DNA of 64,000 nucleotides, taken from assembly GCA_963714585.1 (NCBI GenBank), contig CAVQPC010000077.1, positions 3,878 through 67,877 on the forward strand. Reading direction: 5' to 3'. This DNA comes from an uncultured Methylomirabilota bacterium. GTDB lineage: Bacteria; Methylomirabilota; Methylomirabilia; Methylomirabilales; 2-02-FULL-66-22. Made by a program: the position numbers and the translations under genes. The stretch's first letter is position 1; each line of letters starts with the position of its first letter. Below the pieces are notes generated by a model. That model did no database searches. It was not told the DNA's origin and was given only the letters and a program-made list of their open reading frames with translations. Below, piece after piece: positions 62,688 to 62,963 of the stretch.

Positions 62688-62963
62688 AAGTGCCCCCTCG
62701 TCAAGTAGCTCTCCTACTTCTTTCCTCCTCTCTGGAGCGGCAGATAGTCGAAGAGACGGAGAAGGGACTTATCGACGATTGACCAGACTGATATACGCGG
62801 ATTGGCTACCGCAGCCCAATTGAATCGTCGGCAGCTTGCCTCCCTCTCTAGGCTCGGATTTGTCAGTGACCTGACTACCGGTAGTTCAGTTCGAGGATTC
62901 TGCGATCGAGGAAACACCGTCTCCGTCTCTCCTTCTATCGGCCGCACCTTGGAGTCCTTGCTC

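What the first reader, a model, noticed from the sequence alone, without database searches (positions are those of the whole stretch)
62688..62963. IS110 element b abuts the attC crossover point, and its 3' tail contains guide-like matches to that attC: candidate bridge RNA
attC site 3 is canonical up to ...AACTGAACTGATATG. It then diverges exactly where the G|TT crossover would be, into a 276-bp non-coding stretch that ends at the transposase stop (62964). Within this tail, AGTTCAGTT (62883-62891) is the reverse complement of AACTGAACT (62673-62681), and ACTGATAT (62787-62794) is identical to 62679-62686. So one antisense and one sense match fall on adjacent target segments. IS110/IS1111 recombinases are known to use a non-coding bridge RNA with split guides pairing to opposite strands of target and donor. 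An IS1111 subgroup is also known to insert specifically into attC sites. The matches are short, so chance is not excluded.
Basis: partly seen in the sequence, partly recalled or inferred. Interest (0 to 1): 0.75.

Follow-up and report, generated by a model that had tools for sequence, protein, structure and literature searches.

The report
Bridge RNA of an attC-targeting IS

Summary
Both string matches exist exactly as reported, and each is unique to the IS region within the 64-kb window. The bridge-RNA idea holds.

About 70 related copies from genomes and metagenomes share a roughly 175-nt structured RNA (window 62754-62928, minus strand). Its helices are supported by compensatory changes.

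The antisense match (62883-62891) lies in an internal loop. It covaries with the DNA flanking the right end of each copy, so it is a real target guide.

Two details are wrong:
- The IS ends ...CATATC + AG core. The true junction is therefore 62680-62682, not 62688. 'GATATG' is the IS terminus imitating attC 'CTATG'. The insertion lies 5-7 bp inside the attC, not at G|TT.
- The 'sense' match (62787-62794) sits in a second loop and matches the IS's own right end. It is a donor guide, invariant whatever the target. The real second target guide is UAGAGA (62845-62850).

The transposase is only 29% identical to ISKpn4 and about 40% to ISSfr2, so this is a separate IS1111 lineage hitting the opposite end of attC. 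This copy's transposase gene carries a frameshift. Verdict: new member of a known kind, modest interest.

The parts
62578..62679 (+). Remaining part of attC site 3 (R'' ... L' arm), up to the insertion core
   Evidence: R''/L'' motif ATAACAAATCGTTGCAG at 62579-62595 is shared with the attCs at 60664 and 61753. The right arm GCAACTGAA is comparable with the intact attC 61846-61865.
62680..62681 (.). Core dinucleotide CT (AG on the IS strand), present at both IS junctions in relatives
   Evidence: All full-length relatives read flank-AG-ACAATATG...CATATC-AG-flank. Rejoined flanks give an intact attC with a single AG.
62682..62697 (-). Right-end terminus of IS b: terminal C plus the right arm of the 15-bp subterminal inverted repeat (GGGGGCACTTCATAT on the IS strand)
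   Evidence: The left end ATATGAAGTGCCCCC is seen in L001-L008. The right end is conserved in all copies. The inner repeat bases covary in distant members.
62700..62704 (-). Invariant TTGAC motif just inside the right inverted repeat (possible -35 of a circle-junction promoter; function not tested)
   Evidence: Invariant columns in alignment A1. No complete sigma-70 promoter is found in the linear copy.
62754..62928 (-). Structured core of the bridge/seekRNA, closed by helix P1 (62920-62928 with 62754-62762)
   Evidence: RNAalifold on 53 sequences. 95.9% of cells are paired, against 37-47% in slid controls, and 19 pairs show compensatory changes. Covariance model R1 hits the window only here, at 200 bits. 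Coordinates.
62883..62891 (-). Target guide 1 (AACUGAACU) in the 5' strand of the target-binding loop. It pairs with the IS-sense strand of core + right flank (AG+TTCAGTT = window 62673-62681).
   Evidence: Guide and flank covary across copies: 137/168 matches against 90.3 when flanks are permuted, with 0 of 20000 permutations reaching the observed value.
62855..62880 (-). Variable hairpin P4/P5 separating the two strands of the target-binding loop
   Evidence: Compensatory changes in 5 of 7 pairs.
62845..62850 (-). Target guide 2 (UAGAGA) in the 3' strand of the target-binding loop. It has the same sense as left flank + core + first IS base (..TAG+AG+A), so it pairs with the opposite strand.
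   Evidence: The last 3 variable bases match each copy's own left flank in 35/51 positions against 16.1 permuted, 0 of 20000. The left flank of the window copy lies beyond position 64000.
62814..62824 (-). 5' strand of the donor-binding loop (UUCAAUUGGGC). It contains AUUG, complementary to CAAT in the left end.
   Evidence: Loop position. The match is only 4-6 nt and the left end is invariant, so covariation cannot be tested.
62796..62813 (-). Hairpin P7 of the donor-binding loop
   Evidence: Always paired. Its invariance is partly imposed by the search pattern used.
62779..62795 (-). 3' strand of the donor-binding loop. AUAUCAG (62788-62794) equals the IS right end ATATC + core AG.
   Evidence: Invariant in all relatives whatever the target, as is the right end CATATCAG.
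62964..64000 (-). Transposase gene of IS b (DEDD/IS110 family). Its 5' end and the IS left end run off the window. There is a +1 T frameshift at 63917-63918.
   Evidence: Pfam PF01548 and PF02371. Frame change. A one-base insertion relative to L001, L002 and L006.
61846..61865 (+). Unoccupied sister attC (site 2), serving as an empty-site model: GCAACTCAA[CT]CTATG|TTAT, one mismatch to guide 1
   Evidence: It has the same architecture as the rejoined flanks of L001, L006, L047 and others.

Best explanation
Window 62680-64000 is the right 1.3 kb of a roughly 1.48-kb IS1111-type insertion sequence. It sits inside the R'-proximal arm of an integron attC site. Its 284-nt region downstream of the transposase gene encodes a bridge (seek) RNA of about 175 nt.

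The RNA folds into a closing stem and two internal loops.
- In the first (target) loop, the 5' strand AACUGAACU pairs with one DNA strand of the core plus right flank of the attC. The 3' strand UAGAGA pairs with the other strand of the left flank plus core.
- In the second (donor) loop, AUAUCAG mirrors the IS right end plus core, and AUUG pairs with the left end.

By analogy with IS621, ISEc11 and ISKpn4, the DEDD recombinase bound to this RNA brings the circularised IS and the attC together and exchanges strands at the AG/CT core.

Shown here: the fold (covariation), guide-target covariation, conserved termini and core, and insertion without duplication.

Inferred: that the RNA is made, binds the recombinase and directs recombination.
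For: Relatives. Eight relatives found through the protein (60-96% identity) and 64 found through an NCR pattern share the NCR, the left end AGACAATATGAAGTGCCCCC, the right end GGGGGCACTTCATATCAG and an AG core.

Structure. 37 pairs are predicted. 95.9% of cells are paired against 37-47% for slid partners, and 19 pairs show double changes, for example column 50/127 with CG 29 and GC 24. Many G-U pairs occur on the transposase-sense strand (column 77/98 has GU 30). These would be A-C mismatches on the other strand, so the sense transcript is the folded strand.

Guides.
- Guide 1 against the right flank gives 137/168 matches against 90.3 permuted, with 0 of 20000 permutations as high. The signal holds within the attC subset (1 of 20000) and the non-attC subset (2 of 20000).
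- Explicit switches include AGCAAUUCUG/CAGAATTGCT (L004, L052), AGGAAUUCUG/CAGAATTCCT (L005), UAUAAUCU/AGATTATA (L064), ACAUUUCU/AGAAATGT (L085), UAAAUCCU/AGGATTTA (L058) and UUUAGC/GCTAAA (L033).
- Guide 2 against the left flank gives 35/51 against 16.1 permuted, 0 of 20000.
- The top-strand guide lies 5' of the bottom-strand guide, as reported for IS1111 seekRNAs (PMC11187229).

Family links. Model R1 hits the 3' NCR of the ISfinder element ISSfr2 at 51.7 bits. Pfam finds DEDD_Tnp_IS110 and Transposase_20.
Against: - There is no expression, binding or transposition data.
- The window copy has a frameshifted transposase. Its left end and left flank are off the window, so guide 2 cannot be checked against this copy's own target.
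- The pairing between the donor loop and the left end is short (4-6 nt) and cannot be tested by covariation, because the termini are invariant.
- A few copies sit in poorly matching flanks: L003 group 3/7, L066 3/7.
- One attC-targeting sub-lineage carries an A opposite the variable S position of the attC.
- Rfam 15 has no family that matches, and the published bridge-RNA models could not be run.
- Much of the alignment was collected with a pattern inside the donor loop, so conservation there is partly by ascertainment.
Confidence: 0.86

Rival explanations
1. The matches are chance coincidences. The tail is merely a degenerate untranslated region with no guide function.
For: The matches are short (9 and 8 nt). 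The minimum-free-energy fold of the single sequence buries part of them in helices. There is no Rfam hit.
Against: Both strings are far rarer in the window than observed. The guide position covaries with the flank in dozens of independent insertions. The fold is supported by compensatory changes.
Confidence: 0.02
2. The conserved tail acts as DNA or as a cis-regulatory RNA, for example transposase-binding subterminal DNA or control of transposase expression. In that case it does not guide target choice, and the flank complementarity reflects target preference set by the protein.
For: IS1111 elements have protein-recognised subterminal repeats. The donor-loop sequences and the termini are invariant, so an RNA-DNA pairing there is not demonstrated.
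Against: A protein-set preference would not make 7-10 nt of an internal non-coding segment change in step with each new flank. G-U pairs are specific to the sense strand. In homologous systems the NCR RNA co-purifies with the transposase and is programmable (PMC11187229, PMC11208160).
Confidence: 0.07
3. The tail encodes a small protein (the 77-aa ORF at 62714-62947, minus strand) rather than an RNA.
For: An open frame spans the region in the window copy and its closest relatives.
Against: Open frames fall in different frames and on different strands among relatives, and 7 of 53 have none. Length differences are not multiples of three in 26 of 52 comparisons. Compensatory base-pair changes fit an RNA.
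Confidence: 0.02
4. This particular copy is an inactive relic. The RNA gene is intact, but the element cannot move by itself because its transposase is frameshifted.
For: There is a +1 T at 63917-63918 relative to three relatives, splitting the reading frame.
Against: A single-base indel could be an assembly error. The rest of the ORF is 94-96% identical to intact relatives with no further disruption. The copy could be mobilised in trans by a sister copy.
Confidence: 0.4

Closest known systems
IS1111-family seekRNA / bridge RNA systems (ISEc11, ISPa11, ISKpn4, ISPst6; Siddiquee et al. 2024, PMC11187229; Durrant et al. 2024, PMC11208160)
   Same: - DEDD transposase.
- Subterminal inverted repeats.
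- Long NCR downstream of the transposase gene.
- A structured RNA with one guide complementary to the top strand and one to the bottom strand of the target, the top-strand guide lying 5' of the other, on either side of a small hairpin.
- Insertion at a short core without target duplication.
   Different: - The RNA is not detectably homologous to the ISKpn4 NCR (model R1 gives no hit on L089).
- The transposase is only 29% identical to TnpKpn4 and TnpPa25.
- Nothing here is experimentally shown.
IS1111-attC group (ISPa21, ISPst6, ISKpn4, ISPa25; Tetu & Holmes 2008; Post & Hall 2009, as cited in PMC11187229)
   Same: Site- and orientation-specific insertion into integron attC sites. The transposase is oriented opposite to the cassette genes.
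   Different: - In the ISKpn4 example examined, the IS sits at the gene-proximal R''/L'' end of the qacL attC (TCTAACAA^TTCAAGCC). Element b's lineage sits at the distal L'/R' end (GCAACTGAA[CT]^CTATG|TTATG).
- It is a different transposase clade with different termini.
ISSfr2 / ISCARN28 / ISPye17 (ISfinder IS1111-group elements)
   Same: - These are the closest named transposases among those sampled: 39-41%, 39-42% and 37-39% identity.
- The ISSfr2 3' NCR is recognised by the RNA model built here (51.7 bits, E 1e-12), so the RNA belongs to the same family.
   Different: - Identity is low.
- No ISfinder sequence in the 2024 set carries the clade motif YEAGCFG.
- I did not examine the ISSfr2 target. 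It is not known to me to be an attC.
IS621 bridge RNA (IS110 group)
   Same: Two-loop logic: a target loop and a donor loop, each with two guide strands sharing a core. The core here, AG, is the reverse complement of the IS621 core CT (the IS621 core is from my recollection of PMC11208160).
   Different: - In IS621 the RNA is encoded upstream of the recombinase gene, in the left end.
- The guide order is reversed.
- IS621 has only 2-3-bp subterminal repeats (PMC11208160, PMC11187229).

Membership tests
IS110/IS1111 family, IS1111 group | DEDD (RuvC-like) N-terminal domain plus the Transposase_20 C-terminal domain | tested here: met
   PF01548 (29.1 bits, partial because of the frameshift and window end) and PF02371 (88.9 bits). 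The full-length relative L001 encodes 364 aa.
IS110/IS1111 family, IS1111 group | Longer non-coding region downstream of the transposase gene | tested here: met
   284 nt lie between the stop codon (62964) and the IS end (62680-62682). The left non-coding end is about 105 nt in relatives.
IS110/IS1111 family, IS1111 group | Subterminal inverted repeats of 7-17 bp with short terminal extensions | tested here: met
   15 bp: ATATGAAGTGCCCCC / GGGGGCACTTCATAT. Only the right arm is in the window (62683-62697). The left arm is seen in L001-L008. The inner bases covary in distant members.
IS110/IS1111 family, IS1111 group | Site-specific insertion without target-site duplication (one shared core) | tested here: met
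   Rejoined flanks of L001, L006, L047, L078 and others give an intact attC with a single AG. This matches the unoccupied attC 61846-61865.
Bridge RNA / seekRNA | Conserved secondary structure with internal loops, supported by covariation | tested here: met
   19 of 37 pairs show compensatory changes. 95.9% of cells are paired against 37-47% in slid controls.
Bridge RNA / seekRNA | Loop guides complementary to opposite strands of the target on either side of the core, changing with the target | tested here: met
   Permutation tests (guide 1 and guide 2, each 0 of 20000).
Bridge RNA / seekRNA | Donor-binding loop complementary to both IS ends | tested here: inconclusive
   AUAUCAG equals the right end plus core (7 nt). 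The left-end match is only AUUG(U), 4-6 nt. Both termini and the loop are invariant, so there is no covariation to test.
Bridge RNA / seekRNA | The RNA is transcribed, processed and bound by the recombinase, and reprogramming it retargets insertion | not testable with these tools
   This needs RNA sequencing, pull-down and transposition assays. No internal sigma-70 promoter is found, consistent with read-through from the transposase gene as in ISEc11 (PMC11187229).
Bridge RNA / seekRNA | Match to a curated or published covariance model | tested here: not met
   Rfam 15 gives no hit at E<=1 over 56000-64000.
IS1111-attC group (ISPa21/ISPst6/ISKpn4/ISPa25) | Transposase belongs to that clade (members >=74% identical to each other; ISPa25 46%) | tested here: not met
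   29% identity to TnpKpn4 and TnpPa25 over about 200 aa. The identity matrix is in the supplement of PMC11187229.
IS1111-attC group (ISPa21/ISPst6/ISKpn4/ISPa25) | Insertion at the group's characteristic position in attC | tested here: not met
   ISKpn4 lies between R'' and L''. Element b's lineage lies between L' and R'. Only one ISKpn4 insertion was inspected.
IS1111-attC group (ISPa21/ISPst6/ISKpn4/ISPa25) | Targets integron attC sites | tested here: met
   About three quarters of the copies with a readable right flank (32 of 43 rows) have attC-type flanks..YATAAC(ATAG|GCCG)[AG]TTSAGYNGCSSCGCCG... The window copy lies in attC site 3 of a three-attC array.

The most novel reading that the evidence does not exclude
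attC targeting may have arisen repeatedly in IS110/IS1111 elements simply by rewriting guide loops. Element b belongs to an undescribed ISSfr2-like lineage aimed at the L'/R' arm of attC. Its 60-65%-identical cousins carry other guides and sit in unrelated sites. The same cassette array also holds a second, unrelated and very abundant attC-targeting IS (element a) aimed at the R'' end, where the classical ISKpn4 group also inserts but with an unrelated transposase. If so, integron cassette arrays are a convergent hotspot for RNA-guided IS. This clade would also offer a natural series of reprogrammed bridge RNAs with known targets.
Probability: 0.55. Interest if true: 0.45.

Novelty: new member of a known kind. 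Interest (0 to 1): 0.33.

Why it matters
It gives a sequence-level, covariation-backed annotation of a bridge/seekRNA in a lineage absent from ISfinder. Exact guide, loop and core coordinates are provided.

It shows that attC targeting by RNA-guided IS is not confined to the ISKpn4/ISPst6 clade. A separate lineage hits the other end of the attC.

The natural guide-target pairs collected here (attC and at least nine non-attC targets) form a ready-made test set for rules of guide length, register and mismatch tolerance in IS1111-type recombinases.

For genome annotation, it warns that IS110-family ends can mimic the target and mislead boundary calls by several bases.

Tried and rejected
- Rfam 15 at E<=1 over 56-64 kb: no hit.
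- Scan of viral contigs with the NCR pattern: nothing.
- Look-up of the exact isochorismatase cassette protein, to recover the source contig and the missing left junction: not on record.
- Promoter scan of the tail: no sigma-70-like site. One weak terminator-like hairpin lies outside the IS.
- Minimum-free-energy fold of the single sequence: significant (z = -2.9), but it differs in detail from the covariation-supported fold. I did not rely on it.
- Small-protein hypothesis for the 77-aa ORF: rejected.
- Homology of the RNA to the ISKpn4 seekRNA region or to element a's tail: no hit with model R1, even with filters off.
- The paper by Tetu & Holmes (PMC2447020) is not held. The classical group's insertion point was therefore read from one ISKpn4 copy in a plasmid record.
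- The mini-hairpin that RNAalifold drew inside the donor-loop 3' strand (columns 171-181) never varies. I left it out of the model as unsupported.

Full report
**Observation**

The region was read directly.
- AACTGAACT lies at 62673-62681 (+), and its reverse complement lies at 62883-62891. These are the only two occurrences in the 64-kb window, where 0.09 are expected.
- ACTGATAT lies at 62679-62686 and 62787-62794, plus one unrelated site at 6980, where 0.22 are expected.
- The minus-strand ORF ending at 62964 carries the Pfam domains DEDD_Tnp_IS110 and Transposase_20.
- The site upstream is a real attC. Its R''/L'' motif ATAACAAATCGTTGSAG occurs three times in the window (60664, 61753, 62579). 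The intact right arm GCAACTSAACTCTATGTTAT occurs at 60759 and 61846.

**Relatives and the true boundary**

A protein-seeded scan of one genome per species returned eight relatives with 60-96% amino-acid identity (L001-L008, all metagenome-assembled genomes from several phyla).
- All share the downstream non-coding region and end ...TTGAC..GGGGGCAC(T/A)TCATATCAG, whatever follows.
- All begin AGACAATATGAAGTGCCCCC.
- The ends therefore carry a 15-bp subterminal inverted repeat (ATATGAAGTGCCCCC), short terminal extensions and an AG present at both junctions.

Rejoining the flanks of L001, L002 and L006 gives ...YTAACATAG-AG-TTCAGTTGC.... This is the bottom strand of an intact attC and has the same architecture as the window's unoccupied attC 2 (GCAACTCAA-CT-CTATG|TTATG).

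Hence in the window the core is 62680-62681 and the IS terminus is 62682-62687. It is one base longer than the attC's CTATG.

The insertion point lies 5-7 bp inside the attC from the G|TT crossover, in the L'/R' arm. The window holds 1.3 kb of an IS of about 1.48 kb. The left end and left flank lie beyond position 64000.

**More copies**

A scan of metagenome contigs with a conserved NCR pattern gave 64 further loci. Together with the first set, about three quarters of the copies with a readable right flank (32 of 43 rows) lie in attC-type flanks: left ..YATAAC(ATAG or GCCG), right TTSAGYNGCSSCGCCG... Nine distinct sites are not attCs.

**Structure**

A 53-sequence alignment (A2) was folded with RNAalifold. 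Its pairs were then counted.
- 95.9% of cells are paired, against 37-47% when the partners are slid.
- 19 of 37 pairs keep pairing through changes on both sides. Column 50/127, for example, is C-G in 29 sequences and G-C in 24.
- Frequent G-U pairs lie on the transposase-sense strand. They would be A-C mismatches on the other strand, so the sense transcript is the folded molecule.

In window coordinates the elements are:

| Element | Coordinates (minus strand) |
|---|---|
| P1 | 62920-62928 with 62754-62762 |
| P2 | 62900-62903 with 62831-62834 |
| P3 | 62893-62895 with 62840-62842 |
| First loop, 5' strand | 62881-62892 |
| First loop, hairpin | 62855-62880 |
| First loop, 3' strand | 62843-62854 |
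| P6 | 62825-62830 with 62773-62778 |
| Second loop, 5' strand | 62814-62824 |
| Second loop, hairpin | 62796-62813 |
| Second loop, 3' strand | 62779-62795 |

A covariance model built from this alignment hits the window only here, at 200 bits.

No reading frame is conserved. Open frames shift between frames and strands, and half of the length differences are not multiples of three.

**Guides**

Taken in a fixed register after the invariant CCUCG, its first seven bases are complementary to the seven bases flanking the right end of the same copy.
- Across 24 distinct guide/flank pairs, 137 of 168 positions match, against 90.3 when flanks are permuted. None of 20000 permutations reached the observed value.
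- The signal holds within the attC subset (1 of 20000) and the non-attC subset (2 of 20000).
- Clear switches include L004/L052 AGCAAUUCUG with CAGAATTGCT, L005 AGGAAUUCUG with CAGAATTCCT, L064 UAUAAUCU with AGATTATA and L085 ACAUUUCU with AGAAATGT.
- In more distant members, L058 has UAAAUCCU with AGGATTTA, L033 has UUUAGC with GCTAAA, and L083 has CAAUAAG with CTTATTG.
- Within attC targets, the variable S position of the attC is tracked by the guide (C with C five times, T with T three times, G with G twice). One sub-lineage carries an A there.

*Guide 2.* The 3' strand of the same loop carries, in the sense orientation, the last two or three bases of the left flank plus AG plus the first IS base. 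In the window this is UAGAGA at 62845-62850. Elsewhere it reads AUUAGAC, CAAGACA, CCGAGA and so on. The variable bases match the copy's own left flank in 35 of 51 positions, against 16.1 permuted, with 0 of 20000 as high.

The order is a guide to the top strand, then a hairpin, then a guide to the bottom strand. This is the order reported for IS1111 seekRNAs (PMC11187229, section 'A seekRNA finds the target').

Its AUAUCAG equals the IS right end ATATC plus the AG core. The eighth matching base (T at 62679 and 62787) is a coincidence with attC-type flanks.
- The loop sequence and the termini are invariant in every relative, including those in non-attC sites and distant members whose inner inverted-repeat bases have changed.
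- This is what a donor-binding loop should look like. It also means covariation cannot test it.
- The opposite strand of that loop offers only AUUG(U) against CAAT of the left end.

**Comparison with known systems**

The mechanism class is published. IS1111-family elements carry a seekRNA/bridge RNA in the region downstream of the transposase gene. ISKpn4, ISPst6 and ISPa25 target attC sites with it (PMC11187229). Bridge RNAs were predicted in 93% of IS1111 elements (PMC11208160).

Element b is not a member of that attC group.
- Its transposase is 29% identical to TnpKpn4 and TnpPa25.
- Model R1 does not recognise the ISKpn4 tail.
- An ISKpn4 copy in plasmid pHK31_1 sits at the other end of an attC, between R'' and L'' (TCTAACAA^TTCAAGCC).

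The nearest ISfinder transposases sampled are ISSfr2, ISCARN28 and ISPye17 (37-42% identity). The ISSfr2 tail is recognised by R1 at 51.7 bits. No sequence in the ISfinder set of the 2024 paper carries the clade motif YEAGCFG.

**State of this copy**

Relative to L001, L002 and L006, the window has one extra T at 63917-63918, which splits the transposase frame. Either the copy is non-autonomous or this is an assembly error. The RNA region is intact, and its guides are identical to those of L001.

**Verdict**

The finding is real, and its main idea is right. However, the mechanism and the attC-targeting habit are already known for a sister lineage. What is new is:
- the lineage itself;
- the insertion position;
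- a clean natural series of guide-target pairs;
- the corrected anatomy (boundary, core, and which match is a target guide and which a donor guide).

I rate it a new member of a known kind with modest interest.

Noticed in passing
window 59122-60667 (core copies at 59120-59121 and 60668-60669): Element a is a second, unrelated IS110-family element. It is 23% identical to Tnp-b, shows no significant similarity to TnpKpn4, and its real transposase is about 348 aa.

It is inserted in the R'' end of attC site 1 (cataa[ca]-IS-[ca]aatcg), has the subterminal repeat TAAGGCCTCCCC and a 418-nt 3' tail.

Relatives (L090-L106) also sit in CCAACGAxx[TG]TTAGxx.

The tail carries CGAUUUGAU (about 59450-59458), which equals left flank + core + IS start and changes with the flank in L091. 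It also carries CUUAAC (about 59490s), which is complementary to the right flank.

The family is very abundant (8000+ proteins at E<1e-30).
   Followed up: partly
window 63917-63918: A one-base insertion (T on the minus strand) frameshifts the transposase of element b relative to three relatives. It may be a pseudogene or an assembly error.
   Followed up: yes
window 61846-61865: attC site 2 is an unoccupied near-cognate target for element b's guide 1 (AACTCAACT against AACTGAACT, one mismatch). attC site 1 (60759-60778) has three mismatches.
   Followed up: partly
window 57550-59269: An IS630-type DDE_3 transposase (57550-58515, minus) lies next to a Gp49-like toxin ORF (58664-59269) and a small overlapping ORF (58512-58667) that had no Pfam hit, at the left edge of the cassette array. 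This could be a toxin-antitoxin pair, but that rests on position only. Among the ORFs I scanned in about 51-59 kb, none was an integron integrase. The three attCs may belong to an integrase-less cluster, or the integrase may lie outside the window.
   Followed up: partly
L053 1503-1735 and L059 3600-3832: Two relatives of element b are internal deletion derivatives. Transposase coding sequence is fused directly to the donor-loop half of the RNA, and the target loop is missing.
   Followed up: no
L052 (left junction): One copy has the left flank ...GCATATCAG directly before ACAATATG. The flank looks like another right-end-like terminus. This may be a tandem or nested insertion, or a junction remnant.
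   Followed up: no
L103, L104, L106: Relatives of element a lie immediately next to another IS110-family transposase gene on the opposite strand, suggesting IS-into-IS or shared-hotspot insertion.
   Followed up: no
window 62700-62704 and all relatives: An invariant TTGAC lies just inside the right inverted repeat. It faces outward toward the junction, where it could serve as the -35 of a promoter completed on circularisation. The spacing to any -10-like hexamer in the left end is not canonical.
   Followed up: no
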